Source: the human T2T-CHM13v2.0 reference genome, Homo sapiens
Assembly (NCBI GenBank): GCA_009914755.4
Contig: CP086569.2
Coordinates: 6,624,001-6,688,000, forward strand
DNA: 64,000 bases
Direction: 5' to 3'
Part shown: in pieces, positions 6,540-64,000 of the stretch
Layout of the letters: the number at the start of each line of letters is the position of its first letter
Numbering within the stretch: position 1 is the first letter of the stretch
The notes under the pieces: generated by a model
Told to the model about the DNA's origin: nothing
The model's database searches: none
What the model saw: only the letters and a program-made list of their open reading frames with translations
Program-made: the position numbers and the translations under genes

Positions 6540-6570
6540 GCATTGATGTCCTAGGTTGTAAGGTGCTAAG
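6540..6570 (+). other. Candidate 31-bp micro-exon (non-coding or UTR)
   Basis: Acceptor ttttttttcctctttatag|GCATTG (AG 6538-6539) and donor GCTAAG|gtaagtgaat (GT 6571-6572). The evidence is splice-signal only. Confidence 0.2.
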
Positions 6571-44046: not shown

Positions 44047-45372
44047 TATTATTATTTTTGAATAACTTTATTTAACCCACTGTTGCCAATGGTTTTGAAG
44101 TGTGGAGCCATTTTTCAGATGACACATGCTAAACTACTGAACAGCCTGAGAAATGTCGCTCTGAAGAGCATGCCTTGGCAAACACTCTCCTACTTAATCA
44201 ATCTCCAGTTGATTGGCTTCCAAGTTCATTTGGTTCTCATTTTTCCTAACAACAACCCTGCAAATCATTACCCCCATTTGATGAGGTGCTGGCTGAGAAG
44301 GCTGCTTGCCTAGGTATGTTTCCCACCTGCCTGTGACAAGCTGTTAGATTCTGAAAGCTGGTGGTGCTGGCCTCAGTTAGCTGAGTGATTCCAGTGTAGG
44401 GTCTTTCGAGGCTGCAGGCAAGATGTCCGCCCACCTAAGGTGGGATGGGGGCAGGAGGGGCTGTGTCCTGGCACCTCCCTCCTGTGGCTGCTGAGTTGGT
44501 ATGGCTGTAGGCGGGGGGCCTCAGTGTTGTACTGTACTGGCCTCGCCGTGAGCACCCAAAGGGATTTTATCATACAAATTTGATTCTGTTTTATCAAGAG
44601 ATGCCAGTAGTACCTCCACTTCCAGTTGTGAAACCCCAAAATATCTCCAGACATTGCCTAATATCCCCTGGGAGATGGCGGGGGATGTGGGGAGGGGGCA
44701 ACAGCGGGCACTGTCAATCCTGTTCCAGAACACTGTAGTAAAATACAGAAATGTGATGCCAATCCCATGCTTTTATTTAGGATTGCATGTGTAACACATA
44801 TGCTTCTGAGTGGGAAAGTAACTGTTTGCTCCAAGCAGAAAATGGTGCATCCTTTGTTGTCATGGGGCAAATGCTTAGTAAGGATTTGACCAATGTAGAG
44901 GAATGCTCAGTGTGCAGTGGCAGCCAGGTAGTGAGCAGATGCAGCCCTGCACACAGCGTGAGTTTGTCAGTGTTTGCCAAGCAGTACTCCGGTATGCAGT
45001 CACTGCTGGCTATGGCTCTTAGGCAGGCAGGCTCCTGGCTCCTCCTTGTGTGTCCATCCCGTTTGTTGGCCACCCTGCCTGCTGGCACTAGGCCATCTGC
45101 TCCTTTTCCCAGGTTCTGGTTGCTCCAGCTTGGCCTCCCTCTGCCCATTCTGTGCACCTTTCATTCTTGGGGAGGAGGAGACTCAGGTAAAGAAGGATAA
45201 AGCAGAACGATGCCAGGAAATTCCACTGCTAGCCAGTTGCCCCAAGGACTCGAATGCTCATAGTAGCATGGTTGACCCAAGCCAGGTGGCTGTCAGCTGC
45301 TGCCTGGAGAAACACAGTGCGGTCCAGCCACACAGTGGCATAGTATTCAGCTATAAAAAGAGTGAAGCCCTG

Positions 45373-45592
45373 GGCCTGGTATGGTGACTCAGCCTGTCAT
45401 CCCAGCACTTTGGGAAGCCGAGGTGGGTGGATCACCAGGTCAGGAGATCGAGACCATTCTGACTAACATGGTGAAAACCAGTCTCTACTAAAAATACAAA
45501 AAATTAGCCAGGTGGGGAGGTGGTCTCCTGACTACTAAGCCTGGAGTTCGAGACCAACCTGGGCAATATAGTGAGACCCCATCTCTGTTTTT
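45373..45592 (+). mobile_element. Rearranged Alu (left monomer followed by a second partial left-monomer segment instead of a normal right monomer)
   Basis: ggcctggtatggtgactcagcctgtcatcccagcactttgggaagccgaggtgggtggatcaccaggtcaggagatcgagaccattctgactaacatggtgaaaaccagtctctactaaaaatacaaaaaattagccagg...ctggagttcgagaccaacctgggcaatatagtgagaccccatctctg. Confidence 0.7.
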
Positions 45593-48500
45593 TAAAAACA
45601 ATAAAATTTTTTAAAAGAAAAATAATAAAATGGTTAAATTTACATTAAGTTATTTTTACCCCAGCTGAAAACAACAACAACAAAAACCATGTAGGTGAAT
45701 GTCCAAGGGAATGTCTATATTGGGCCTATGGTGTGCTGTTCTGGTTTTTCTTATATGAATGGGCTCTGAAGGCTGCGTCAAAAGGGGAGTCTTTAAAGTT
45801 GCTAATTTTTTCCTGATACAAAAAGAATATAGTTTCTCAAAATGACTGCTTTCGAGGAATGCCCCTTTCTAAATTTGAAAACATAGTATTAAAAACAAGA
45901 GTCTCTCAGTGCTTTAGACCGTTATTTCTTGTATTCAATTTAAAAATCCCTTATGGTGGTTTGCAGATCTGCAGAGAAATTCACAAAGCATGATTGAAAA
46001 GTGATGTGTAGTCTTTATAGTTGAATAGGAAGAAACCAGCTGATTTGCATATAGGATGAAATGTAGCTGAGGGTGCTATTGAGTTTGGACAACATTTGGC
46101 TAGACCTTTGTAACTTTTCAGCTCTATGAAGCAATAATTGTGTGAAGAATTAAAAGGTGGAAAATGAACTGCATGTGGCTGGCTCGCATATGCCTAGGTC
46201 TATTTCCAGACACAACGACCAGTGAAATGACAGTGTTGGTGATGCACCAGTTCAAGGAAATATACAAAGACTGCCTACTCACAAATACAGACACCAGCGG
46301 ACTGATACATTGCTTGCACTTGAAGGTATAGAATTAGAAAACATAGGAAAACAGCAGCAGACTGTTCTGTGTCCTTTTCTTTAAAACTATATCTTGAAAT
46401 TTCTGTGCTTCCCCCAAGAACATCTTTAAAGATGACAGTAAAATAACTCCAGAGGAAACTTTCTGAATTCTAATATCCACATGAAAATGTTGCATTTTCT
46501 TCTGATTTTTCACAATAAAAGTATGGCAAACCTCATGAAGAAATGAATGTGGTAGAGGGCTTCTGAAATCTACGTATTAACATTTGTGATCAGCTAGTGA
46601 AATATTCTCATTGATTATATATAGTACATCCTTCATTCATTAAGCTAACTTTTATCAAGTATGTGTTATGTGTCAAGCCTAGATTGTAGAAATGGAACTT
46701 GAGGAAGACAGGACTCTTCCTCCTGTTTGGGTAGAAAAGGTATTATGTGTGTTATGAATGATGTGATGGAAGGAAACACAGGACAGCATTGGAAAATGGA
46801 GATCATCACCCAGAGATTCTGTATTCTACTTGGGGAATAGACTAAACATCAAAATACAGTAATTTAAACAAAATGCATTTACCCCTCATGTATTGGTACA
46901 AAGGCAGACAATAGTCCCAGAAGGGTAGGTGTCAAATCCCCAAGAGCATCGGGGGATCAAGGTTCCTTTTGTGTTACTATCCTGCCTTCCTAAGGGTCAG
47001 ACAGGCTCTCAAGCAACCCCCATGAGCACAAGTTGTATGCATCCTTTCCCAGCTCTTCTCACCTACCATTGGCAAGAACTCAGTAGTGGAACACCCAGGG
47101 TCTGTTAGTGAGGTGTGCTTGTGTGACTGAAAGAAAAAGAGAAGTCTTTTGGGGAGGAGCAGGCCTGGTGGAATCATAGTTTCTAAATCTTTGCATTTTA
47201 TCTAATTCAGTTTTTTGAAGAAATGTACGTAGCACCACAAACTCTATTCTTAACCTACTTTCTATGGAGAAGCAGGCACATGCTGTGTTGTATCAGCTTG
47301 GAGAGCCCCTTCAAAACCTCTCCACATTCAATGTGGAGGGACTGTCACTATACATGCACGGCACACCATGCCAAGAGGGGAGGACTACTGGAACATTAAA
47401 ATCTCTTTTGTATTTGTCACATAATCAGCATTTAGTTGTAAAAATAAAGAGCATACGGCATTTGTTAAAATCATTTCCATTTCATAACAAATATTTGGCC
47501 ATATGTAAACTTTCTTGCTGTGGCTGTTTTTTAATAATGTTTCAATTTCTGTACTAATAATTTGTAATAATAATAACAATGGGAAAATCAGTAATGAACA
47601 GGTGTTGGAAGGTCTGATTTCTCATTTTAATTTATTGTTTCTAGCTATAAACAAATTATTTTTGACATGTTGCATAACCAGAAGAATGTTATTAAATAAA
47701 GTCATAATTCTCCTTTTTGGTGTTGATGACACCCAGATGATAATTACACTTAATGAGTTTAACAACACATATAAAAGATAATCTAAAGTTTCAGGACCCT
47801 GTTATGTGGGTTACCATCTGTTTTGGACCAAAGAATAAGAATTGGATTCCAAGCTTTTTTCTGAACAGCTTGTAATAAGAGCTGTTTGTGTATTAATTAC
47901 TTCTTGAACTATTGTGGGTTTTAATGTTTTAATTTACAAGCAATTTGGAATTTATGACATCTGCTCATATTTTGATACTTCATGCTATTTACCAATTTTG
48001 TCATGAGGCTGTTTTTCCCCCTGGTAATTTACAACCTAATTCTGAAAATAGTAATTTGGTCTCTACCAGTTCACTCTAAGGAGAATTGCCCTGTTTCATC
48101 TCCACTGCAGATTTTTTTTTCATAAGTGAAAGTATCTTTGTTTTATAAACAAAATTAAGTTGCCATTGTGCCTGCTTCTCTGGTGCCCTTTCATTTCTGT
48201 TCAAAGAGTTAGAGATGAATTTAGTTTCACTCTCATTGCTTTACTTAAGTAGTTGGTTTTTTACAAATTGTCCTGGTTATTACTTTTGGTTGGTTTTTGT
48301 TTTTGTTTTTCAATGTACTCTAATGCAATTCATGGTCCTGTGAACCTGACTGTAGAACTTTTTTTTAAATCTCCTTTATTTAAACATCATAACTGTAAAC
48401 ATGACCCAGTGGGAATAATTTACTTGCAGTTCCTGAAAGTACTTCATGAGGTTCCATATGAGTTCACTAATAACAAACACCACTCATAGCTTCGCTGGTA

Positions 48501-48632
48501 GACTTCAAGTATACTAAACCTGGTACCTTTTTATTATCACTTAAGACTATTTAGAGAAAATGGTGAGCCTTTAATTTTCTTAGTTCTTGAATTTGTAGTT
48601 GATAGAGGGTAATTTAAACTCTCTAGGCGGGT

Positions 48633-48947
48633 GGCCAGGTGCAGTGGCTCATGGCTATAATCCCAGCACTTTGGGACGCTGAGGTGGGTGGATCACTTGA
48701 GCCTAGGAGTTTGAGACCCTGGTCAATATGGTGAAACCCTGTCTCTACTAAAAATACAAAAATTAGCCAGGCATGGCAGCGGTTGCCTGTAATCCCAGCT
48801 ACTCAGGAAGCGAGGCAGGAGAATCACTTGAACCTGGGAGGCGGAGGTTGCAGTAAGCTGAGAAAGTGTCACTGCACTCCAGCCTGGTTGACAGAGTGAG
48901 TCTCTGTCTCAAGGAAAACAAAAACAAAAACAAAAAGAAAAACAAAA
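48633..48947 (+). mobile_element. Alu SINE (sense) with interrupted A-rich tail, flanked by 12-bp target-site duplication aaactctctagg
   Basis: ggccaggtgcagtggctcatggctataatcccagcactttgggacgctgaggtgggtggatcacttgagcctaggagtttgagaccc...ccagcctggttgacagagtgagtctctgtctcaaggaaaacaaaaacaaaaacaaaaagaaaaacaaaa. The TSD copies are at 48616-48627 and 48946-48957. Confidence 0.9.
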
Positions 48948-49779
48948 ACTCTCTAGGAGGCTGGATTCATTCACAATCAAATAAATTTTATGAGAAAGCT
49001 GGTAAATATCATTAAATGGTTGGCATTTATAGTGACTAAAAAATAAAACAATTTTTAATATAGAGGATGATTGCTTTATGAGATATAAACCTGGCTTACT
49101 GAAAAATCAGTGCAAATGAACCCTTGTGAAATAAAAATGTCTAAGAACAGTACATGAGAAGTTGAGATGTCAGTTGGTGCCTTTGTTTTCCTTTATTTTA
49201 GAGGAGCCGAAGGAAAAAGATTCTGACCTGTTTCTGTGTTTTTATGAGCACAGTATATAAGAATGGTTATATGCGCACCAACATGCACTCTGGGGTTACT
49301 GGAAAGCTAGCCCCAACAATGGGAAACATCTTGCTACAGTGTGATATCTTCTCCCAGTGGTGTGCACAGGTTCATGTATCAGTTGCATAAGGCACTGTTC
49401 CAAAAACAACAATAAGGGAATAAGGTTCAAGGAACCTTAATTTATCTTTAAACTTAATTTAATTTAAAATTAATTTAAATATTTATATAATAGCAGTAGC
49501 AATAGCTGAGCTAATATTATCTATTTTGAGACTTTTCTTTCAGAACTTCTACAGGCATAATAATGCCTGACTGGTCATTTTAATTTCTCCTTTTTTTTTA
49601 GTTTGCAAACAAAACCCTGCAATCTGTGCTTTAGACTAACACAGAAGTTAAGAACTAATAAGATGTGTTAAGTTTGAGTTAGGATGAAAAAGAAACCTAA
49701 AAGAATGGGAGGGGTGAGAGGTAAAAACACCCTAAGGATTTTTAAGTCTTTTGTTCTAAACCTTTCCCTTTCTCCCTAG

Positions 49780-49868
49780 GCTGGTCCCCACAGACGGCTT
49801 GCCATTTCTATGACTGGATGCTGAGAAGCCTGCTGGTTCAGAGGTCCACACATGAAGTTACCATAAAG
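49780..49868 (+). other. Candidate 5'UTR exon (89 bp) of the same + strand gene; contains a short uORF start (ATG 49818, MLRSLLVQRSTHEVTIK...)
   Basis: Very good acceptor ttttgttctaaacctttccctttctccctag|G (AG 49778-49779) and donor ATAAAG|gtaagcagc (GT 49869-49870). It lies in non-repeat sequence in the same orientation, 3.5 kb upstream of the coding exon. Confidence 0.45.
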
Positions 49869-50889
49869 GTAAGCAGCCCAGCATGCCATTGGATCCTTGT
49901 CCTTGTACCTGAAACATATTTCAGGAGCAAAACTGCATTTTGCCAAAACGCAATCCCTTCTCTTTTAAATTATGTTTTCGGGGAAAGTGGCACATCTTTG
50001 TCCTTGCTGAAATTGAAGCCATTAGAGAAACCATTATTAAATCCTTATGAGCTGCAAAGTCAATTCTAAATGAGGAATTCGCCTTTTTACTGCCTTCTGA
50101 GAATTTTGGATCCTGAATGAGCAATAACAAACTTTTCTGGGTCTTACCAGTCGAGATAACACCTTCTAAAATCAACCTCTCTTGTGAATATTATAATTAT
50201 GCAGGCTTGTTAATTGTAATTGGGCACACGAGTATAGATTTTATTTGACTCCTTTGTCTTCATTTTGTGCTCCATTAGTTTTTTAATATGATTTGTGTCT
50301 GTCTGCGTTGATTTGCTAGTTAACCGTGAAACTTATTAGAAAATCATGCAGATTACTGTGTGTAAATGTGGTGAGACGCTTAAGGTTTCCTGATTAGCAA
50401 ACCAAACAGTTCTATGTGGCCAGGTGTCAAAAGTTGAAACCGATACCCAAACTAAAACTAAGACCTGCACCCCAAAAGTTCTTTTAAAGTTATCCTATTA
50501 CCTTTTGGTACATAGGATTATAGTTTTATTTTACTTAGTTGCTACTTAATTTTCTGCTTCTTTCTCTAAGGCATTTTTAGTTTTTTTTTTTTTAAAACTA
50601 TAGAAATTTGGTAACTTGAAAGCATAAGGATGGAATTTTGAGGGAGATTTTTGCTTTACTGTTTTGAAAGAACCAACTAGAACTAAACTGTAGGCTTAAA
50701 TTTAACTAAAATAGGAAGCTTACTGTTTGAGGTACTTTTGTTTAAAGCAAGATGTACGTATATTGTTATAACAAGTTAAACATGTAGAGGTATTTGAGTG
50801 TTATTTGACTTAAATATTTGAAAGGTGTTGTTTGTTAATAAAAACAAAATTTGTAATATATTAGTGAATTTGAATTTTTTGATTGGCTC

Positions 50890-51280
50890 TTTCATTCAGT
50901 ATAATGTTTTCAAGGTTCATGTGCATTGTGGCATGTGTCATTCCTTTTTACATTAGAATAATATCTCATTGTGTGGCTAGATCATGAATAGAACATGTTT
51001 TATCCATGCATCAGTTGATGGAAATTGGGGTTGTATTTCCCTTTGGGCTACTATGAAAAAGATGTCAGGAATACACATATACAAGTTTTTGTGGGGACTT
51101 ACGTTTCATTTCTTTGTGGTATCTACTTAGAATTGGGTCATTTGGTACCTCTGTTGAACATTCTGAGGAACTATTGTTATGTTCCTCAAAATGTAAAGTG
51201 GTCAAAGTGGCTGTTATGTCAGTCAATATTTTTTGAAATGCCATTGAACCATATTCTAAATGTGAGAGGGATGATGGGAG
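50890..51280 (-). mobile_element. Old L1 (L1M-type) 3'-end fragment, antisense
   Basis: ttcattcagtataatgttttcaaggttcatgtgcattgtggcatgtgtcattcctttttacattagaataatatctcattgtgtgg...catcagttgatggaaattggggttgtatttccctttgggctactatgaaaaagatg...acatatacaagtttttgtggggacttacgtttcatttctttgtggtatctacttagaattgggtcatttggtacctctgttgaacattctgaggaactattgttatgttcctcaaaatgtaaagtggtcaaagtggctg. Confidence 0.75.
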
Positions 51281-52055
51281 GGGGTCCTTTCTCTCATCAG
51301 TGTTTTGACTGGGTATTAATTTCAGTACTTTGGGAACCTAAGCTTCAGTTTAATTCAATCTAGTATGTGCTGAATTTCTCCTGTGCGTGAGGTGTCTGTG
51401 TTTGGCCTTATAAATGACTGAGTGTTTTTGTGGCCTTTCATACCTTATGCAGTTTATAGATGCAGGTGGTAATTTGGGATTATCCTGAAAAAGGGCACTC
51501 TGTTGCTATTGTTCATCAGTAAGGCTGGGAATAACTTGTCTAACATACTCTTTCTGCCTGTGTTGGGCACTGCGGCTTAGAAAGTGAAGGCTTATAATTG
51601 TTTCCTTGAGATGTGTGTGGTTTCAACACATGTCCTCCTTTCAAAGTCATCCATAACAGACCTGGGTAATTGTGTTTTATTGACTCTCAGTCTTAAACTG
51701 GTTGGTAAGATTATGAGGAATGTTCACATTAGGGGCGTTCACCATTGAGGTTCTTAGGCAGGAAGATTCCACACCCAGAAGGGACTAGGCAGTTGTTCTC
51801 TGAAGTAGAGGTGGGAAAATCTGTTGTAAATCGAGAAGGACTGAGAGCAGGCTCAGCAAACGTGGTCTGTGATGGACCTGATAGTAAGGGGCTTAGGATT
51901 TGTGGGCCAGGCAGTTGCAGCTGCTTTACTCTGCCATTGCATTATGAAGGCCCTACGGAGATGAATGAACATGGCTCAGTGCCAAGAAAACTTTATTTAT
52001 AGACATTGATACTGGGTTGCAGTTTGCTGACTCTGACCTAGAGCAACACACTGTT

Positions 52056-53190
52056 TTTTTTTTCCTTTTATGTCTTTTTATTTTTATTTTAAGTACTTGG
52101 GTACATATGCAGGATGTGCAGATTTGTTACACAGGTAAACATGTGCCATGGTGGTTTGCTGCACCTATCAACCCATCACTTTGGTATTAAGCCCAGCATG
52201 CATTAGCTGTTTTTCCTAATGTTCTCCCTCCCCACTCTCCAAACCCCAGTGCCAGCATGTGATGTTCCCTGCCCTGTGTCCATGTGTTCTCATTGTTCAA
52301 CTCCCACTTGTAAGTGAGAACATGTGGTGTTTGGTTTTCTGTTCTTGTGTTAGTTTGCTGAGAACGATAGTTTCCAGCTTCATCCATATCCCTGCAAAGG
52401 ACATGAACTCATCCTTCTTTATGGCTGCATAGTATTTCATGGTTTATATGTGCCACATTTTCTTTATCCAGTCTATCATTGATGGGAATTTGCGTTGGTT
52501 CCAAGGCTTTGCTGTTGTGAACGGTGCTACAATAACATACATGTGCATGTGTCTTTATAGTAGAGTGATCTATAATCCTTTGGTATATACCCAGTAATGG
52601 CATTGCTGGGTCAAATGGTATTTCTAGTTCTAGATCCTTGAGGAATCACCACACTGTCTTACACAATGGTTGAATTAATTTACACTCCCACCAACAATGT
52701 AAAAGCATTCCTATTTCTCCACATCTTCTCCAGCATCTGTTTCCTGACTTTTTAATGATTGCCATTCTAACTGGTGTGAGATGGTATCTCATTGCAGTTT
52801 TGATTTACATTTCTCTAATGACCATTGATCATGAGCTTTTTTTCATATGGTTGTTGGCTGCATAAATGTCTTCTTTCAAGAAGTTTGTGTTCGTATCCTT
52901 CACCCACTTTTTGATGGGGTTGTTTTTTCTTGTAAATTAGTTTAAGTTCTTTGTAGAGTCTGGATATTAGCCCTTTGTCAGATGGATAGATGGCAAAATT
53001 TTTTTCCCATATATATGGCAAAATTTTTTTCCCATTCTATAGGTTGCCTGTTCACTCTGATGATAGTTTCTTTTGCTGGGCAGAAGCTCATTAGTTTAAT
53101 TAGGTTTCTAATTGAGCCTTCCCTGGCCTTAGGAAATAGGTCAACTCTTGTTTTTTTGGAAAACATTTCACCTGGTCTTTTTTTTTTCTT
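52056..53190 (-). mobile_element. L1 (L1PA-type) 3' end: ORF2 C-terminus + 3'UTR, antisense; poly-T 52056-52066
   Basis: gtgtccatgtgttctcattgttcaactcccacttgtaagtgagaacatgtggtgtttggttttctgttcttgtgttagtttgctgagaacgatagtttccagcttcatccatatccctgcaaaggacatgaactcatcc...gtaaaagcattcctatttctccacatcttctccagcatctgtt is the exact reverse complement of the region present in sense at 63630-64000. It has an internal 22-bp tandem duplication at 52995-53040. Confidence 0.9.
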
Positions 53191-53364
53191 ATGTATAATT
53201 ATGGAATGTTTATGTAATTACATAATTACAAAATATAACGCATCATATATTAATTACCTTCATGTGTATAATAGCATAGATAGTATTTTCTTTAATCACC
53301 TCACACACAAAAAAAAGAGAAACACACAGGCAGTGTTTCAAAACTGTCTTCTTTTTTCAAACAG

Positions 53365-53472
53365 AGGGTGGTTCCAACTTCATCAATACCTCATCGCCAT
53401 GAGGTGAGGCTAAGATGAGCATAACCAGTGACGAGGTGAACTTTCTGGTTTATCGGTATCTCCAGGAGTCAG
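53365..53472 (+). other. TBL1Y: Complete exon containing the TBL1-family start codon (5'UTR portion 53365-53414 plus CDS 53415-53472)
   Basis: Acceptor with a polypyrimidine tract, ctgtcttcttttttcaaacag|AGGGTGG (AG at 53363-53364). Consensus donor cag|gtaaga at 53472/53473. Confidence 0.7.
53415..53472 (+). CDS. TBL1Y: First coding exon (start codon) of a transducin-beta-like 1 family gene; encodes MSITSDEVNFLVYRYLQES + first base of Gly codon (LisH motif N-terminus)
   Basis: ATG at 53415 in an aagATGA context (A at -3). The translation MSITSDEVNFLVYRYLQES(G) matches the TBL1X/TBL1Y N-terminus exactly; TBL1XR1 has MSISS. The donor is tcag|gtaagagg at 53472/53473. An in-frame upstream TGA at 53400-53402 and Asn where TBL1X has His (as recalled) favour the Y paralog, but TBL1X is not excluded. 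Confidence 0.7.
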
Positions 53473-55263
53473 GTAAGAGGCTTGGTTTTCTGTTGGGAGG
53501 AAATTCATCCTGAGCATCTTACGAGCAGAATGATCAACCCTTGATTCAAAACCAGGCTGTAGAAGAAGAACAGCTAAGAAAGTTCTCAGTGCTAACAGGG
53601 AGAAGAGAAGGTTGTGGAGCCATGTCATCCCACCTTCCTCAACGATAATGACCCTAGTGGACTTTGTTATCTCTACATGTTTACTACACACAGCTGTTTT
53701 CCTAACCAATATACAGAGCCAGTGGATTTGTTTCCTAGAACTGCCATAATGCAATACTGCAAACTGGGATGGCTTAAAAGGAAATACGTTGTCTCCTAGT
53801 TCCTGAGGACAGAAGTCCAAGATCAAGATGTGGGAAGGTCAGCTCTTTCTGAGGGCGAGTCTCCTGTGCCCGTCCTGGCTCCTGGGGCCTTGCCGCAGTC
53901 CTTGGATTCCTTGGCTTGTAGGGGCATCACCCTCGTCTCTTGTGTTCAGATTTGACCACATTTCCCTGTGGTAAAGACAGTCAGATTGGTTTAGGAATTT
54001 ACTCTACTCCAGGATAACCTAATTTTAGTAATTGATTCTGAATCCAGTTATAGTTACATTTGCACTGACCCTGTTTCCAAATAGCATCACATTCTGAGGT
54101 GCACTGTTGATGAGCACTTTAACCTGTGAATTTGTGGGGGTGGGGGCACAGTTCAAACACCAGGATTTGTTTTGGAGTCTTTTTAAGGTTTGTCCCCTTA
54201 ATACCAGATTGAATATACAGTATGGAACTTGATTATTTGAAAAGGAACTCCCAGTTCCTTGGCACCCCCTCCCAGAGATGTATGTATTCAATTTGAAGGA
54301 AGCCAGTCTGTGGTCCCTTGGGCATGGGTTCTCTCACTGCTGTGTAGGGTACAATATAGGCATTGGAGCCACCCAGAATGGCTCAAGATGTGATCGTTAA
54401 ACAAGTCTGAGTGAGGCCTGTTCATTTGAGCCTTGGTTTTCCTGCCCAGGCAAACGTGATCAAGTATGTGAGGCACGTAACATGTTGTAAATAAGTGCCC
54501 TCCCCATCAAGCCTGGGTTTCTGTCCCTTGTGCTCCCAGCTACCATTATTCATGGGAAGTGCATGCGCTTTCTGCATATATATCAGATACCTTGGATTGG
54601 CTTTTGTCAGACGCAGTATAAGCAATTGGTATACAAAACAAAATAGGTACTGCCTCACCCCTGGGAATCAGGGAAATAATAACCCCTGTGCTAATACCTC
54701 AACCTTGGCTCTTAGACTAGCACAGGTGATCTCCTGTCTCAGAGCTCAAAGCTTCCCAGAGGTGGCTGCAAATGGAAATCATGCATACCAAAACCTGCCT
54801 CCCTGTTCACTCATGGCATGTAGTTTAGCATTTAGCAACACCTTTGCACAAGGACGTGATGAAGGCCAAAGAGACTCACGGCATGTAAACAAGTTCCAGG
54901 CTGGAGCTGTCAGGTGTAAAAAGTGCATGTGCACGGAGACAGAGCCATGCTGCTTGCTGGTCCCGAGGGTCCCCAAGTGTGAGCTTTGCTGGCCTCTTGG
55001 CAGAAGCCACCAACTCTCCCCAGAAAGATCGTCTTCCTTATTCAGTGCTTGTTTATGAAGCTTCTGTAACCAGGCAGTTGAGATGGAGAGCTAGAGCACA
55101 ATAACGCGTAGACCTTGGCAAATGTCAACTTTATGTAACATCTGTGAGCTTCATTTCCTGATTCTACAGTGTTGCTGAAGTAAGATACCTTAGGTGGAGT
55201 TGGTATTGAAGAGAGACACTGTTGTACTTTCTTCCAATTATTGTGTGTATTGTGGTACTTTCT

Positions 55264-55530
55264 TTTTTTGAAATGGGGTCTCAGTTTGTTGCCCAGGCTG
55301 GCGCTCACTGCAGCTTCAACCTCCTAGGCTGAAGCCGTCCTTCCACCTCAGCCTCCCAAGTAGCTGAGACTACAGGCATACCAACGTGCCCGGCTAATTT
55401 TTGTAATTTTTGTAGAGACAGGGTTTCACTATGTTGCCCACGTTGGTCTGGAACTCCTGGTTTTCAATGATCCACCCACCTTGGCCTCCTAGGGTGCTGG
55501 GATTATAGGTGTAAGCCACTGCGCCCAGCC
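55264..55530 (-). mobile_element. Alu SINE (antisense)
   Basis: ttttttgaaatggggtctcagtttgttgcccaggctggcgctcactgcagcttcaacctcctaggc...ataggtgtaagccactgcgcccagcc. Confidence 0.9.
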
Positions 55531-55730
55531 ACTGGAACTTTTTGGAGTACTCCACAAGGTTGTATTTAAAGGAAGAAGGGAGCAAAGAAGTGTTCATTCT
55601 TGGGATGTTTTCTATGTTTACCTCAAGTCCTGAAGTTTTGGTTAGGTCAATATTTATTGAGCCGCAATCAAGAAAGAGCACCTTCTCCTCAGCCTATCAA
55701 TGTTTCCCTTCTACCTTAAAGAAAAAGGAA

Positions 55731-56105
<375 letters not shown>

Positions 56106-57569
56106 AAATGTTTCCTTGATCATGTTCCCTCCTCAAGCACCTGTACTGTCATTCCTGCACCCCACCAAACTCATTAAAAACAGATTCTGCACCTCAGAAA
56201 ATGATTCATTCCTCAAATACCTCTAGTCTGACTTTCTCCATTAGAAGTCTTCAGTAAGTTCTGGGTTCCCATATCCAGTAATCTTACTGCAACTGGCATT
56301 CCTCCTTCCCTGCTCATCCATCCTTACCTGTGTGCAGCAGGAAGTGGGTATGGGGGTGGGGGTGGTGAGGAAGGGAGTAGGTGTTGACCTGCAGTGCAGC
56401 TGGGCAGGGTTCCCTGGAAGATCTGCTCAGAATCCTCAACCTCACCTTCCAGGTGCAGTGATGGACAAGTTCTCCAGAGTCACCGAGCTTGTGGCCTGAG
56501 TCCTGCTTCTGAGCCCTGGACCCAGCAGAATAGATGCCATTCCTGTCCAACTGTTCATCTCCTTCACCACCAGTGTCTCTCTTCCTCCCCTCTACCAATA
56601 TCCATGATGTCAGTTAGGATGCATTAGGCTGCAAGAAAGGGAATCTTCAGTGGAGCACTGATATGCTCAGATAGCAGGGGAGTAGGGTGTTGAAGAAGGA
56701 CCCAAGACACACAGCTCTTCAAACTCAGGAAGGAGCCTCAAAAATGGATCTGTTTTGTTCCTCTGCCCACAACAGGCAGATGTCAGGTCATCTGGCTTTT
56801 AGCAAACCATGTATATTTCCTAACCTGTGTGGATTAGTGGATTTTCATTGTTGCCCTGCAGGGCCTTTGCCATGAGAAGCACTCCGTGGATGTTATCCAT
56901 AGGTGGCATCTCAAAGCAGCGCACTCATGGCAGTCAGAAAAAGGAAACTAATTAGGCAAAAATTTTAAGTAGTAGACGACTTATGCATTACCAAGTTCTA
57001 GTGCCAAAAGGAATTTGTTGTGTTTGCATGAGTTTAGCAGTCTGGCATTGACGGGTGACTCTATTGGCCTCTGTCTTACGGGATCCATTGCCTGGTCACT
57101 TGTGCTATCTGGGCAGCTTTTAAGAATCACATGGTGACCATGTGCCTTTCCCGTGAGCTCATGTTACCATCCCAGGAGCAGAGAAGCAAGGGAGCGAGCC
57201 CCTAGAAATGTGCACAGCCTGCACCTGCTGTAGTGAGCAGCTCCCCCAAATGCTGGGGGAGTTGTGAGTTGTTTGCCCCCACATATTTCTGAACACAGCC
57301 AGGGAAGTGGAAGTCCATTTTCCACTTAGTATGGAAAGAGAGAAAATTTGTCAGATGAGTTCCTGTAAACATAATAAGTATTTCCTCTGGGACTTCATCA
57401 CCCAAAGTCCAAACTATAAAGAAGACATGTTCTTCCATACCCAGATTTTTAGCATACATAAGATAATTCACACAGACTTGCAAGGCATTATGAGGAACAT
57501 GGGACAGAACCACAGATTCAAACTGAATTTAGCTGGGAAAGAACTGCCTGCAACATAATCAAGTGATAG

Positions 57570-57905
<336 letters not shown>

Positions 57906-58139
57906 TGATTTTTTAAAGAAGGGGAAAATACTGTCTAAAGAGGAAGGAAGAACGGAATGTGAGGAGCTGTCTTGAGTGTAGTCAACACACATGACAGTTC
58001 TGTCATTTCAAAATTGCCTAGTGTCCCTTTGTTCTGAGCCCTCTTCTATTCCTTCCCTGCACCTTGCAGCCTACTCTGTGTTCTGTTCATAGAGTTTTGC
58101 ACTCGTAAGAATGGCATAGAGATGGCATCATGCATTGTG

Positions 58140-58440
58140 TGGCCCTGAGAGTGTGACGTCTTTTATTCAACCTCATGTATTTGAGATTCATGCATGCTAT
58201 TGTGTGCACCAGCCATTCTTTCTTTAATAGCTAAGTGACATTTCATATTGAAGGCCTTTTCAGTGATTTGTTTATCCATCCTCCTGTGGAAGGACATTTG
58301 GGTGCTTTCTAGGTTTTAGGGATTCCAACATAAAGCTGCAAAAAACATTTTCATACAGATCTTTTGTGTGAACATAGGTTTTCACTTCTCTTGGGTAAAT
58401 ATCTAGGAGTGGGATTGCTGGTTCATGTGGTTAACTGTAG
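58140..58440 (-). mobile_element. Old L1 (L1M-type) 3'-end fragment, antisense
   Basis: ...gatttgtttatccatcctcctgtggaaggacatttgggtgctttctaggttttagggattccaacataaagctgcaaaaaacattttcatacagatcttttgtgtgaacataggttttcacttctcttgggtaaatatctaggagtgggattgctggttcatgtgg. This matches the L1 3' consensus (ttatccattcatc.gttgatggacatttgggttgtttccac...gggtatatacctaggagtggaattgctgggtcatatgg) in reverse complement. Confidence 0.8.
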
Positions 58441-59035
58441 GTTTCAGAAACCAGTGCATTCTTTTCCAACTAAGGCGGAGGCAAGACACATGACAAATAT
58501 GAATGGTTTTACAGAGATGAGTTCTGTTGCAGAGCTTGTCTGCCTGTTGCTCAAGGCGTATTGGAAAGTATGTAAAAAGACATTAGCTCTGGTGTATATA
58601 TCTGCAGAACACTCATGAAGTTTGATTCTTTTTCTGAGGGTTTGCAGTTAGCCTTCTGGGCTAATTTCATGAATCTGTCAGGGTCACAGTTTCCATGGGC
58701 AGACGTGAATGTCGCCCAGGTCTGCTGAGTGACAGAGCATCCTGGTTTGCACACCTTCCCCTCCTTCAGCAGTGCAGTTGGTGTAACTTTCTGCATATAA
58801 ACAGAAAACTCTACAGTCTGGTTAGCCCTCTGGTGGGTAGACTCCAGAATCTGCACAGGACAGAGGCCTGTCTATTCTGGCTTTCAGAAAACAGGGTTCC
58901 TACCGGCTGGACCATATGGCAGCCAGGAAAGATCTCTGTGCATTTGCCCACATACCCATGCTGTACAAGTCATCAAAAATCCAGTGAAGCATTTTCCCCA
59001 CCTATATATTTAACTTCTAAATCTACTTATCTTTC

Positions 59036-59415
59036 AGATAGATAGATAGATAGATAGAGACAGGCTAGATAGATTAGACAGATTAGATAGAATAGATAGA
59101 ATAGATAGGTAGATAGATACATAAATATTAATAGATACATTAGGTAGATAGTTTAGAGTAGATATTGATAGATTAGACAGATGATAGATATAGATACATA
59201 GGCCAATAGATTGATAGATTAGACACAGTAGTTATTAATAAATAGATAGTAGATATTAATAGGTTAAATAGATGGATTAGATAGAGTAGATATTAATATA
59301 TTTGAAAGATGATGATACATAGATAAGAGACAGATAATAATATATCAGAAGAGTAGATATTAATAGATAAATTAGATAGGATAGATTGATTAGATTAGAT
59401 AGATACATTGATTTC
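59036..59415. repeat. ~380-bp degenerate (GATA)n/(TAGA)n-derived satellite-like array
   Basis: gatagatagatagatagatagagacaggctagatagattagacagattagatagaatagatagaatagataggtagatagatacataaatattaatagatacattaggtagatag...gattagattagatagatacattg. A short pure (GATA)5 core grades into diverged AGAT/AGATT/ATAGA units. Confidence 0.9.
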
Positions 59416-60399
59416 CTGGCTATGTGACATACTTCACCTGCAGTACTTCTCTCTGGTGATGATGTCATTCAGATGAGTTACTGTAAGAGGAGTGAGTACA
59501 AAGAAGAGTGAATGAGATCTCAGTGGCCTCCTCTTTCCACAGCAAGCCCAAGCACAAAGATAAAAGGCTACACTGAGCACTCAACACACAGTGAGGTTGG
59601 GCTCTCCATAAGGAGTATGTAGCAGATGACCCAGCAACTTCACAACTGGTGCAGGTCTTGGTTAGAGTGAGGTAAGGTGGAGGGGAAGCACTTCCCTGAG
59701 GTGTTCGTGTGTTCCAGTGCTCCTCGTATCCTAGGCTTCTGAACAGAGGGCTGTCAGTTGAGTGAGTGGTTCTTGTCACCTCCTGTTGGCCTGGCGTTTC
59801 ATGGTTCTGGAGTTTCTGCCCAAGTGGAGACCAAGGTCTGTTCTGTGTCAGTCTCCTCCTGTCACATCTGTAAGCTGCTGTTGTGAGGGCGGTGGTGTCA
59901 AGGTGAGCTGAATGGAAAGACATGCTCCCTCCTTCCAAGACTGACCTCACACTTTAGGGGAGTAGTACAGTGTGCTTTAAAAAACCTCAGCAGAAACAAC
60001 ACAGATATCCATTGACAGAGGAAATTCCATCAAAAGCATGTATGCATCCATACAGTGGAATATCATGACTGAGCTTTGAAAAGGAAGGAAATTCTGACAC
60101 AGGCTACAGCATGGATGACTCTCAAAGAAATTATACCAAGTGAAATTAGCCAGTCACAAATGGCAGATACCATAGGATTCTACTTGTAAGGGATACCTTG
60201 AGGAGTCTAGTCCAAAGACACAGACAGTGGAAGGGTAGTTGCTGGAGCATGGGGAGAAACGGAGGGTGTGGAGTTTGTATTTAAGGGTACAGTTTCAGTT
60301 TTGCAAAATGAATAAAATTCTCGACACATTTGGTGGCGAAGGTTGCACAACAGTATGAATGCACCTAATGCCTCTAAACTGTGCACTTAAAAATGGTTA

Positions 60400-60650
60400 A
60401 GATGGAGTCCAAGGTGGGAGGATCACTGGAGGCCAGGATTTCAAGTAAGCTTGGGCAACATAGCAACACCCTATCTCCACGAAAAAAATTTCAAAAATTA
60501 GCTAGGCATGGAGGCTCACATCTGTAATCCAGCACTTTGGGAGGCTGAGGTGGGAGGATTGCTTGAGCCCGGGTGTTCAAGGCTGCAGTGAATGGGGATC
60601 ATGACAGTATACTGCAGCCTGGGCAACAGTGAGACCCTGTCTCCACAAAA
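60400..60650 (+). mobile_element. Alu SINE, 5'-truncated (sense)
   Basis: ccaaggtgggaggatcactggaggccaggatttcaagtaagcttgggcaacatagcaacaccctatctccacgaaaaaaatttcaaaaattagctaggcatggaggctcacatctgtaatccagcactttgggaggctgaggtgggaggattgcttgagcccgggtgttcaaggctgcagtgaatggggatcatgacagtatactgcagcctgggcaacagtgagaccctgtctcc. Confidence 0.85.
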
Positions 60651-61124
60651 TAAATGTGTATTTTTACCACAGTTTTGGGCGACAGGTCACAGTGAGATGG
60701 TCCATGTGTAGATGCGTTAAGTTTAGAAAATTAGTCTCAGAAGAGAGAACCACAGGAATTACATTATAACTTAGAGTGAATTATAATTAGTGTGAATTCC
60801 CAGTAATTATTACATGATAAGGGCTTTTTCATAGTTGTGTTCAGTGTTTGGGGCAAGTCCCTAGCACAGACAGTGTCATTTGTTAGCTACACTGGTATCT
60901 GACAAAATTTGGTTATGAAAAAAATTAAGCAGAAAATGTAGCTTTAGTCATAATAGCAATATTCTGGAAAAAAGGCTATTATCCCTCAGTGGATATGGGT
61001 GAGGCAAGCTGTGTTGTCTCTGTGCCACGGAGCACTGCTCAGCTGTGAAAAGGAAGGAGCTGTGAATATGTGCGATAAGCTAAAGAAACCTCCAGAGTAA
61101 TGTGCTAAGTAGAAAAAGCTGTCT

Positions 61125-64000
61125 CATAACATACCAGAATCTCTGGGACACATTTAAAGCAGTGTGTAGAGGGAAATTTATAGCACTACATGCCCATAAG
61201 AGAAAGCAAGGAAGATCTAAAATTGACACGCTAACATCACAATGTAAATAACTAGAGAAGCAAGAGCAAACAAATTCAAAAGCTAGCAGAAGACAAGAAA
61301 TATCTAAGATCAGAGCAGAACTGATAGAAAGAGAGACATAAAAAACCGTTCAAAAAATCAATGAATCCAGGAGGTGGTTTTTTGAAAAGATCAACAAAAT
61401 AGGTAGACAGCTAACCAGACTAATAAAGAAGAAAAGAGACAAGAATCAAATAGACACAATAAAAAAATGATAAAGAGGATATCACTACCAATCCCACAGA
61501 AATACAAACTACCATCAGAGAATACTATAAACACCTCCACACAAATCAGCTGGAAAATTTAGAAGAAATGGATACATTCCTGGACATATACACCCTCCCA
61601 AGACTAAACCAAGAAGAGGTTGAATCCCTGAATAGATCGTAACAGGCTCTGAAATTGAGGCAATAATTAATAGCCTACCAACCAAAAATTCTCCAGGACG
61701 AGACAGATCCACAGGCAAATTCTACCAGAGGTACAAAGAGGAGCTAGTACCATTCTTTCTGAAACAATTCCAATCAATAGAAAAAGAGAGAATCCTTCCT
61801 AACTCATTTTATGAGACCAGCATCATCCTGATACCAAAACTTGGCAGAGACACAACAAAACAAGAAAATTTCAGGCCAGTATCCCTGATGAACATTGATG
61901 CAAAAATCCTCAACAAAATACTGGCAAAAAATCCAGCAGTACATCAAAAAGCTTATCCACCACGATCAAGTTGGCTTTATCCCTGGGATGCAAGGCTGGT
62001 TCAACATACACAAATCAGTAAACGTAATTCATCACATAAACGGAACCCATGACAAAAACCACATGATTATCTCAATAGATGCAGAAAAGGCCTTTGACAA
62101 AAATTCAACAACCCTTCATGCTAAAAACTCTCAACAAACTAGGTATTGATGAAACATCTCAAAATAATAGGAGCTATTTATAACAAACCCTCAGCCAATA
62201 TCATACTGAATGGGCAAAAACTGGAAGCATTCCCTTTGAAAACCTGCAAGAGAGAAGGATGCCCTCTCTCACCACTCCTTTTCAACATAGTATTGGAAGT
62301 TCTGGCCAGGGCAGTCAGGCAAGAGAAAGAAATAAAGCGTATTCAATTAGGAAGAGAGGAAGTCAAATTGTCCCTGTTTGCAGATGACATGATTGTATAT
62401 TTAAAAAACCCCATTGTCTCAGCCCAAAACCTCCTTAGGCTGATAAGCAACTTCAGCAAAGTCTCAGGATACAAAATCAATGTGCAAAAAGTACAAGCAT
62501 TCCTATACATCAATAACAGACAAACAAACAGCCAAATCATGAGTGAACTCCCATTCACAGTGGCTACAAAGAGAATAAAATACCTAGGAATCCAACTTAG
62601 AAGGAATGTGAAGGACCTCATCAAGGAGAACTACAAACCACTGCTCAAGGAAATGAGAGGACACAAACAACTGGAAAAACATTCCATGCTCAGGGATAGG
62701 AATAATCAATATCATGAAAATGGCTATAATGCCCAAAGTAATTTATAAATTCAGTGTGATCCCCATCAAGCTACCATTGACTTTCTTCACAGAATTGGAA
62801 AAAACTACTTTAAATCTCATACAGAACCAAAAAAGAGCCCATATAGCCAAGACAAACCTAAGCAAAAAGAACAGAACTGAAGGCATTGCGCTACCTGACT
62901 TCAAAATATACTACAAGGCTACAGTAACCAAAACAGAATGGTACTGGTATCAAAACAGATATATAGAACAGAGGCCTCAGAAATAACACCACACATGTAC
63001 AACCATATGATCTTCGACACACCTGACAAAAACAAGCAATGGGAAAAATATTCTCTATTTAATAAACGGTGTTGGAAAAACTGGCTAGCCATAGGCAGAA
63101 AGCTGAAACTGATCCCTTCCTTACACATTATACAAAAATTAATATAAGATGGATTAAAGACTTAAACGTAAGACCTAAAATGATAAAAACCCTAGAAGAA
63201 AACTTGGGCAATACCATTCAGGTTATAGGCATGGGCAAAGACTTCATGACTAAAACATGAAAAGCAATGTCAACAAAAGCCAAGATAGACAAATAGGATC
63301 TAATTAACTTAAAGAGCTTCTGCATAGTAAAAGAACCTATCATCAGGGTGATCAGGCAACCTATAGAATGGGAAAAATTTTTGTCATCTATCCATCTGAC
63401 AAAGGGCTAACATCCAGAATCTACAAAGAACTTAAACAAATTTACAAGAAAAAAAAATCAAAAAGTGGGTGAAGGATGTAAACAGACATTTCTCAAAACA
63501 AGACATTTATGTAGCCAACAAACATATGAAAAAAAGCTCATCATCACTAGTCATTAAAGAAATGCAAATCAAAACCACAATGAGATACCATCTCACACCA
63601 GTTAGAATAGTGATCATTAAAAAGGAAACAACAGATGCTGGAGAAGATGTGGAGAAATAGGAATGCTTTTACACTGTTGGTGGGAGTGTAAATTAGTTCA
63701 ACCATTGTGGAAGATAGTGTGGTGATTCCTCAAGGATCTAGAACCAGAAATACCATTTGACCCAGCCATCCCATTACTGGGTTTATACCCAAAGGATTAT
63801 AAATCATTGTGCTATAAAGACACATGCACACGCATGTTTATTGCGGCACTGTTTACATTAGCAAAGACTTGGAACCAACCCAGATGCCCATCAATGATAG
63901 ACTGCATAAAGAAAATTAGGAACATATACACCATGGAATACTATGCAGCCAGAAAAAAGGGTTCATGTCCTTTGTGGGGACATGGATGACGCTGGAAACC
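61125..64000 (+). mobile_element. L1 (L1PA/L1PB-age) element, sense: ORF2 from the end of the endonuclease domain through RT to near the C-terminus; 5'-truncated, runs off the window
   Basis: Frame-shifted translation gives [26 protein letters not shown]..., ...[16 protein letters not shown]..., ...[49 protein letters not shown]..., ...[23 protein letters not shown]...[49 protein letters not shown]... and ...[16 protein letters not shown]...[16 protein letters not shown]..., all matching L1 ORF2p. Multiple stops and frameshifts make it an inactive copy. Confidence 0.95.

What the first reader, a model, noticed from the sequence alone, without database searches (positions are those of the whole stretch)
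49780..49868. Well-formed 89-bp upstream exon in unique sequence, likely a 5'UTR exon of the same gene
A pyrimidine-rich acceptor (ttctaaacctttccctttctccctag|G) and a consensus donor (AAAG|gtaagc) bracket an 89-bp segment. It sits between repeat blocks, 3.5 kb upstream of the coding exon, on the same strand.

Only one frame is open, and it contains an ATG at 49818 (MLRSLLVQRSTHEVTIK). The TBL1X-like extension frame is closed by a TGA within this exon, so it is not the TBL1X long-isoform coding exon. TBL1Y is known to have several non-coding 5' exons.
Basis: partly seen in the sequence, partly recalled or inferred. Interest (0 to 1): 0.5.

Follow-up and report, generated by a model that had tools for sequence, protein, structure and literature searches.

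The report
Ancient non-coding TBL1Y leader exon
The 89-base segment is the Y-chromosome copy of an old, non-coding leader (5'UTR) exon that TBL1X messenger RNAs of several mammals splice directly onto the first coding exon; this is ordinary, expected gene anatomy, not a new feature.

Summary
Window 49780-49868 is an 89-nt segment bracketed by a strong acceptor (ttctccctag|G) and donor (AAAG|gtaagc). It lies 3.5 kb upstream of the first TBL1 coding exon (53365-53472) on the same strand. With an approximate splice-site matrix it is the only such pair of this quality in the 64 kb, on either strand.

The decisive evidence is homology. Six assembled RNA contigs of TBL1X-type mRNAs from public runs carry a homolog of this segment in their 5'UTR. 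They appear to come from one catarrhine primate, three other placental mammals and one rodent-like species. In five of the six contigs the homolog is joined directly to the homolog of 53365. The junctions fall exactly at the predicted acceptor and donor.

The exon is non-coding. It is a different exon from the TBL1X long-isoform "MTELAG..." exon, which is absent from this window and from a monkey Y locus.

I found no Y-derived RNA covering the 5'UTR, so use of this copy in TBL1Y mRNA is inferred (about 0.8). Two cautions apply. The Y copy evolves no more slowly than its flanks. In the Rhinopithecus Y the acceptor AG is GG.

The parts
49754..49761 (+). Candidate branch-point motif TTCTAAAC, about 20 nt upstream of the acceptor AG
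   Evidence: Read directly from the sequence. Pattern match only, not tested.
49755..49779 (+). Polypyrimidine tract and acceptor (TCTAAACCTTTCCCTTTCTCCCTAG)
   Evidence: PWM score 10.4 bits, top 4 of 4,647 AGs on the + strand. Homology to spliced X mRNAs begins exactly after this AG.
49780..49868 (+). 89-nt internal non-coding (5'UTR) exon; Y gametolog of a conserved TBL1X 5'UTR exon
   Evidence: 88.8% identical to L001 56-144. 76-80% identical to L004, L005, L007 and L008. 93.3% identical to Rhinopithecus Y L009 5005-5093.
49869..49874 (+). Donor site GTAAGC (exon end AAAG|)
   Evidence: PWM score 6.95 bits, top 6 of 3,784 GTs. Conserved in Rhinopithecus Y. The mRNA junction falls here in L004, L005 and L007.
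49818..49868 (+). First part of an upstream ORF. It starts at ATG 49818 and, after the conceptual splice, runs 34 codons and ends at the TGA overlapping the main ATG (window 53416-53418)
   Evidence: This uATG is not conserved: AGG in L005, GTG in L007.
49852..49866 (+). Four-codon mini-uORF ATGAAGTTACCATAA (M-K-L-P-stop)
   Evidence: The ATG and an in-frame stop four codons later are present in all six sequences compared: MKLP*, MKSS*, MKSP* three times, MHSL*.
53345..53364 (+). Acceptor of the first coding exon (cttcttttttcaaacag)
   Evidence: All X mRNA contigs join here.
53365..53472 (+). First coding exon of the TBL1Y-like gene. Main ATG at 53415. A TGA at 53400-53402 closes the X-type N-terminal extension
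   Evidence: Human TBL1Y NP_150600.1 starts MSITSDEV.

Best explanation
Window 49780-49868 is the Y-linked (TBL1Y-type) copy of an ancient internal 5'UTR exon of the TBL1X/TBL1Y gene pair.

In the pre-mRNA it would be recognised as an ordinary U2-type GT-AG exon. It has a 20-nt pyrimidine tract plus AG, and a donor AAG|GTAAGC that pairs with U1 snRNA. Its donor would be joined to the acceptor at 53365, placing 89 non-coding nucleotides immediately upstream of the first coding exon.

The exon encodes no part of the protein. It contributes leader sequence carrying upstream AUGs that may damp translation.

Shown: the sequence anatomy; homology to an exon that is spliced with these same boundaries in TBL1X mRNAs of several mammals; and its non-coding nature. 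Inferred: that the Y copy is still spliced into TBL1Y mRNA, and any effect on translation.
For: (1) Splice sites are intact and unusually strong for this window.

(2) Six RNA-derived contigs from six sequencing runs encode TBL1X-type proteins and carry the homolog in their 5'UTR. In L001, L004, L005, L006 and L007 it abuts the homolog of 53365 directly. In the alignment of genomic Y against the mRNAs, similarity starts exactly at the predicted acceptor and stops exactly at the predicted donor.

(3) L001 is 96-100% identical to gibbon X exons, so it is a catarrhine TBL1X mRNA. The window is only 88-92% identical to L001 and 80-88% identical to gibbon X. It is colinear at 88-89.5% with the Rhinopithecus Y TBL1Y locus. 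The window therefore holds the Y gametolog.

(4) The coding exon at 53365 has a conserved acceptor and needs an upstream donor. The alternative X donor, the MTELAG exon, is absent from the window and from the monkey Y.

(5) All three frames argue against coding. Two have stops, and the open frame's ATG is not conserved.
Against: No RNA from the Y copy covering the 5'UTR was found. The only Y-type contig (L003) is internal to the gene. A look-up of the window's intron-read-through ORF found nothing, and so did a metagenome scan for the exon core.

Between the two Y loci the exon is 93.3% identical against 91-92% for its flanks, so there is no sign of purifying selection on the Y. In Rhinopithecus Y the acceptor AG is GG. 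A predicted macaque TBL1Y isoform (MECGFCF...) implies an upstream exon ending in ATGG. That does not match this exon's end.
Confidence: 0.8

Rival explanations
1. Relic exon. The segment descends from the real TBL1X/Y leader exon and still looks like one. On the Y it is no longer, or only rarely, included, and TBL1Y mRNAs reach 53365 from other upstream donors.
For: Neutral-like divergence between the two Y loci. Loss of the acceptor AG in Rhinopithecus Y. A macaque predicted isoform implies a different upstream exon end. At about 10% divergence, keeping four essential splice nucleotides by chance is likely (roughly 0.9^4, about 0.66; my estimate).
Against: Both sites are intact and among the strongest in the window. 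No better-placed conserved donor was found. The X alternative (MTELAG exon) is missing on the Y.
Confidence: 0.15
2. Chance pseudo-exon: a decoy pair of splice-like motifs in intronic or intergenic DNA with no history as an exon.
For: Splice-like motifs are common in long introns. Four weaker pairs appear on the + strand when thresholds are relaxed by 3 bits.
Against: Homologous sequence is spliced with the same boundaries in mRNAs of several mammals.
Confidence: 0.01
3. Coding exon: either the start of an N-terminally extended TBL1Y isoform, or a translated upstream peptide (MLRSLLVQRSTHEVTIK...).
For: One frame is open with an ATG at 49818. After the conceptual splice it gives a 34-codon ORF.
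Against: The frame that leads into the main ORF has two stops in the exon and a further TGA at 53400. The 49818 ATG is absent in L005 and L007, and the exon length differs by 1 nt in L001, shifting the frame. The true X extension exon is a different sequence. Human TBL1Y starts at MSITS.
Confidence: 0.03

Closest known systems
TBL1X 5'UTR exon immediately upstream of the first coding exon, as seen in assembled TBL1X mRNAs L001, L004, L005/L006 and L007
   Same: Homologous sequence (76-89% identity). Same acceptor and donor positions. Same downstream partner exon. Non-coding. Shares the conserved 3' core GGATGCTGGG...AGGTCCACACATGAAGT and the four-codon mini-uORF.
   Different: This is the Y copy. 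It differs by about 11% from the catarrhine X exon. It is 89 nt against 88 nt in L001. It carries an extra uATG at 49810 that L001 lacks (GTG there). Its 49818 uORF overlaps the main AUG. Its use in RNA was not observed here.
TBL1X long-isoform exon encoding MTELAGASSSCCHRPAGRGAMQSVLHHFQRLRGR- (gibbon X, L002 10001-10103)
   Same: Also lies upstream of the exon encoding GGSxFINTSSP-GEAKMSITS and splices into it.
   Different: Unrelated sequence. In gibbon X it lies about 0.5 kb upstream of the coding exon, inside a segment with no counterpart in this window or in Rhinopithecus Y. It is coding, whereas the 89-nt exon is not.
uORF-bearing internal 5'UTR exon of the autosomal paralog TBL1XR1
   Same: The paralog also has several non-coding 5' exons with the start codon in a later exon (PMC1555579). 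It also has a short internal 5'UTR exon carrying upstream ATGs (PMC12822670).
   Different: Homology between that exon and this one was not tested. For TBL1XR1, removing the exon or its ATGs did not change reporter translation (PMC12822670). An effect of the uATGs here should therefore not be assumed.

Membership tests
U2-type GT-AG internal exon | AG acceptor preceded by a polypyrimidine tract | tested here: met
   TCTAAACCTTTCCCTTTCTCCCTAG|G. PWM score 10.4 bits, top 4 of 4,647 AGs on the + strand.
U2-type GT-AG internal exon | GT donor matching the U1-complementary consensus MAG|GTRAGT | tested here: met
   AAG|GTAAGC. PWM score 6.95 bits, top 6 of 3,784 GTs.
U2-type GT-AG internal exon | Branch point 18-40 nt upstream of the AG | tested here: inconclusive
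   TTCTAAAC at 49754-49761 fits yUnAy loosely. Pattern only.
U2-type GT-AG internal exon | Observed inclusion in RNA transcribed from this locus | not testable with these tools
   No Y-type RNA contig covering the 5'UTR could be retrieved. Needs male RNA-seq or cDNA.
TBL1X/TBL1Y leader (5'UTR) exon preceding the first coding exon | Sequence homology to the exon found at that position in TBL1X mRNAs | tested here: met
   BLAST E = 1e-28 to L001. Also hits L004, L005, L006, L007 and L008.
TBL1X/TBL1Y leader (5'UTR) exon preceding the first coding exon | Same exon boundaries and same downstream splice partner | tested here: met
   Genomic-to-mRNA similarity starts at 49780 and ends at 49868. The mRNAs continue with the homolog of 53365.
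TBL1X/TBL1Y leader (5'UTR) exon preceding the first coding exon | Locus is the Y gametolog rather than X | tested here: met
   Colinear at 88-89.5% identity with Rhinopithecus chrY TBL1Y. Identity to gibbon X is 80-88%. A TGA closes the extension, as in Rhinopithecus Y. The X-only MTELAG exon is missing. The species of the window was not determined.
TBL1X long-isoform N-terminal coding exon | Encodes MTELAG...RLRGR- in a frame continuous with GGSxFINTSSP | tested here: not met
   That frame has two stops in the exon. tblastn and blastn with the gibbon and marmoset extension and its exon find nothing in the window.
Conserved regulatory uORF | uATG and its in-frame stop conserved across species | tested here: met
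   The mini-uORF at 49852-49866 is present in all six sequences, with a TAA or TGA stop at the same position. The sample is small and the surrounding bases are also conserved, so this may be a by-product.
Conserved regulatory uORF | Ribosome occupancy and an effect on main-ORF translation | not testable with these tools
   Needs ribosome profiling or reporter assays.

The most novel reading that the evidence does not exclude
The leader exon is retained because of its upstream AUGs. The four-codon mini-uORF, conserved from rodents to primates, would be a translational control element of TBL1X/TBL1Y. The Y copy adds a 34-codon uORF ending on the main AUG and a new uATG created by CpG decay at 53399. 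Together these would make TBL1Y translated much less efficiently than TBL1X, a post-transcriptional X-Y dosage difference.
Probability: 0.12. Interest if true: 0.3.

Novelty: already known. Interest (0 to 1): 0.1.

Why it matters
It matters little beyond correct annotation. The result shows that the exon immediately upstream of the first TBL1Y coding exon is inherited from the ancestral TBL1X/Y gene. It also shows that the Y copy lacks the X long-isoform exon, which fits the annotated start of TBL1Y at MSITS. For anyone studying X-Y dosage of this co-repressor subunit, the differing sets of upstream AUGs in the X and Y leaders give a small, testable hypothesis.

Tried and rejected
(1) Retrieving Y-type RNA. 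Three protein searches returned many TBL1X-type partial proteins from RNA assemblies but only one Y-type fragment (P0249/L003). That fragment is internal to the gene.

- bonobo LOC129395581 isoform X2
- Rhinopithecus isoform X3
- macaque isoform X3
- the window's own intron-read-through ORF MSITS...GKRLGFLLGGNSS

(3) A metagenome scan for the exon core pattern, chosen to be shared by X and Y, gave 0 hits.

(4) Searching the window and gibbon X for the next-upstream X mRNA exon segments gave only chance-level short matches. The next upstream exon was not located.

(5) I first suspected, from a guessed back-translation, that the exon might be a decayed copy of the MTELAG exon. I rejected this once the real gibbon exon sequence was in hand.

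(6) Structured RNA: no Rfam family in 47-55 kb. There is no conserved fold: -6.8 kcal/mol, with no covariation support.

(7) Literature. Papers mentioning TBL1Y that are held do not describe its 5'UTR exons. Yan et al. 2005 and Di Stazio et al. 2019 are not held.

Full report
OBSERVATION

The sequence is as described. The acceptor TCTAAACCTTTCCCTTTCTCCCTAG|G lies at 49779/49780. The donor AAAG|GTAAGC lies at 49868/49869. The segment is 89 nt.

The next exon downstream on the same strand begins at 53365 behind ...ttttttcaaacag|. It reads EGGSNFINTSSP*GEAKMSITSDEVNFLVYRYLQES, the LisH-domain start of a TBL1 protein. That exon ends at 53472, not 53473.

Frame 2 of the 89-nt segment is open and holds the ATG at 49818. 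The frame that continues into the coding exon has two TGA stops.

IS IT MORE THAN CHANCE?

I scored every AG and GT in the window with an approximate human splice-site weight matrix. The frequencies were recalled from textbook values, so the scores are rough.

- The acceptor (10.4 bits) is among the four best of 4,647 AGs on the + strand.
- The donor (6.95 bits) is among the six best of 3,784 GTs.
- The pair is the only one, on either strand, 50-250 nt apart with both scores at least this high.
- None of 200 locally shuffled windows gave such a pair.

From the site counts alone, about 0.08 such pairs would be expected per strand (my arithmetic: 4 x 6 x 201/64,000).

The segment lies in DNA that is single-copy within the window. 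An Alu-like element lies at 48631-48948 and a repeated element at 52078-53103.

WHAT IT IS

Protein searches with TBL1 N-termini returned partial TBL1X-type proteins predicted on assembled RNA contigs. I fetched six such contigs.

- L001 (SRR13339314): positions 56-144 are 88.8% identical to window 49778-49866. They are followed without interruption by the homolog of 53363-53474, which is 92% identical.
- L004 (SRR32622113), L005 and L006 (SRR29752144, SRR29752140) and L007 (ERR2353943) show the same arrangement, at 76-80% identity over the exon.
- L008 (SRR30843135, rodent-like) carries the homolog further upstream, with extra sequence between it and the coding exon.

In the alignment of genomic window against the mRNAs, similarity begins exactly after the predicted AG and ends exactly at the predicted donor. 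The segment therefore descends from a real exon of the ancestral gene. That exon is used with these boundaries across placental mammals.

WHICH CHROMOSOME COPY

L001 is 96-100% identical to the exons of the gibbon TBL1X locus (L002). It is therefore a catarrhine X mRNA.

The window is only 88-92% identical to L001 and 80-88% identical to gibbon X. It is colinear from 45209 to 64000, at 88-89.5% identity, with the TBL1Y locus on the Rhinopithecus roxellana Y chromosome (L009).

Both Y loci have a TGA where X has CGA in the N-terminal extension. Human TBL1Y (NP_150600.1) starts at MSITS. The window is a TBL1Y-type locus of a primate. I could not determine the species.

NOT THE LONG-ISOFORM EXON

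Gibbon and marmoset TBL1X proteins start MTELAGASSSCCHRPAGRGAMQSVLHHFQRLRGRE-GGSHF. In gibbon X that exon is L002 10001-10103, about 0.5 kb upstream of the coding exon.

X-Y similarity starts only at L002 10386, which corresponds to window 53118. The MTELAG exon region has no counterpart in the window or in the monkey Y locus. The gibbon X homolog of the 89-nt exon is not within the 10 kb upstream of the MTELAG exon.

The reason is more basic than a closed frame: it is a different exon.

HOW IT MOST LIKELY WORKS

It is an ordinary internal non-coding exon. Splicing of 49868 to 53365 would place 89 nt of leader directly before the first coding exon (inferred for the Y copy).

The conceptual Y leader has four upstream AUGs in its last 139 nt:
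- 49810, MTGC*
- 49818, 34 codons, ending at the TGA that overlaps the main AUG
- 49852, MKLP*
- 53399, MR*, created by the same CpG decay that made the TGA (X has CCGCGA, the window has CCATGA)

Only the four-codon uORF at 49852 is conserved. The ATG and a stop four codons later are present in all six sequences, with TAA in some and TGA in others. The 49818 AUG is AGG in L005 and GTG in L007. Any translational effect is speculative. For the paralog TBL1XR1, deleting a uATG-bearing 5'UTR exon did not change reporter output (PMC12822670).

There is no Rfam match and no conserved RNA fold.

CAUTIONS

I found no RNA from the Y copy that covers the 5'UTR.

Between the window and Rhinopithecus Y the exon is 93.3% identical (83/89), against 91.9% and 91.0% for its flanks. 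The exon is therefore not measurably constrained on the Y.

In Rhinopithecus Y the acceptor reads CCCTGG|GCTGG, so the AG is lost, while the donor is kept. A predicted macaque TBL1Y isoform begins ME-CGFCFINTS. That requires an upstream exon ending ATGG, which this exon does not. A relic-exon reading therefore keeps about 0.15.

COMPARISON AND NOVELTY

This is the Y gametolog of a known kind of element in a known gene. From memory, reference TBL1Y transcripts have several non-coding 5' exons and differ only in the 5'UTR. I could not verify that here. Nothing about the exon departs from standard gene anatomy.

VERDICT

Observation confirmed. Interpretation supported. Already-known kind. Interest low.

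Noticed in passing
window 52078-53118, compared with L002 9600-10386: The TBL1X long-isoform exon (MTELAG...) and its surroundings have no counterpart on the Y. X-Y similarity resumes at window 53118, 15 nt after a repeated element (52078-53103) that the Rhinopithecus Y shares. The Y lineage seems to have lost that exon by rearrangement before the ape / Old World monkey split.
   Followed up: partly
window 53397-53402: X has CCGCGA (Pro-Arg). The window has CCATGA. Two CpG transitions create both the in-frame TGA that closes the N-terminal extension and a new upstream ATG (53399, MR*). Rhinopithecus Y has CCGTGA. A predicted macaque Y isoform still reads Arg there, so the stop may have arisen more than once.
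   Followed up: partly
window 49852-49866, and homologs in L001, L004, L005, L007, L008: A four-codon upstream ORF (ATG + 3 codons + stop) is present in all six sequences from rodent-like to primate, with TAA or TGA at the same position. It lies within the most conserved part of the exon (invariant core ACACATG).
   Followed up: partly
L009 5003-5004 (Rhinopithecus roxellana chrY), homolog of window 49778-49779: The acceptor AG of the exon is GG in the monkey Y assembly, while the donor is intact. An AG 13 nt downstream (CCATAG|ACGG) might substitute. It could also be an assembly error.
   Followed up: no
window 6540-6570 (+): A 31-nt exon-like segment has an excellent acceptor and a perfect donor (attttttttcctctttatag|GCATTGATGTCCTAGGTTGTAAGGTGCTAAG|gtaagtga). 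Both sites rank among the best in the window. It shows no similarity to the upstream parts of the X mRNA contigs. It could be another TBL1Y leader micro-exon or a decoy.
   Followed up: no
L008 113-372 (rodent-like Tbl1x mRNA contig): In this transcript about 260 nt of extra exon sequence lies between the leader-exon homolog and the coding exon. Part of it looks SINE-like (my impression only). It supplies an in-frame ATG that the gene caller used (MSALTRNRNF...; P0001, P0124).
   Followed up: no
P0123, P0269 (human and Rhinopithecus TBL1Y predicted isoforms): Predicted isoforms start MCLKSAGHFQISMAARPSFNLGLTQRQLSSLAA-GFSHSAF. They skip the MSITS exon and so lack the first part of the LisH domain. 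Their first exon is not in this window.
   Followed up: partly
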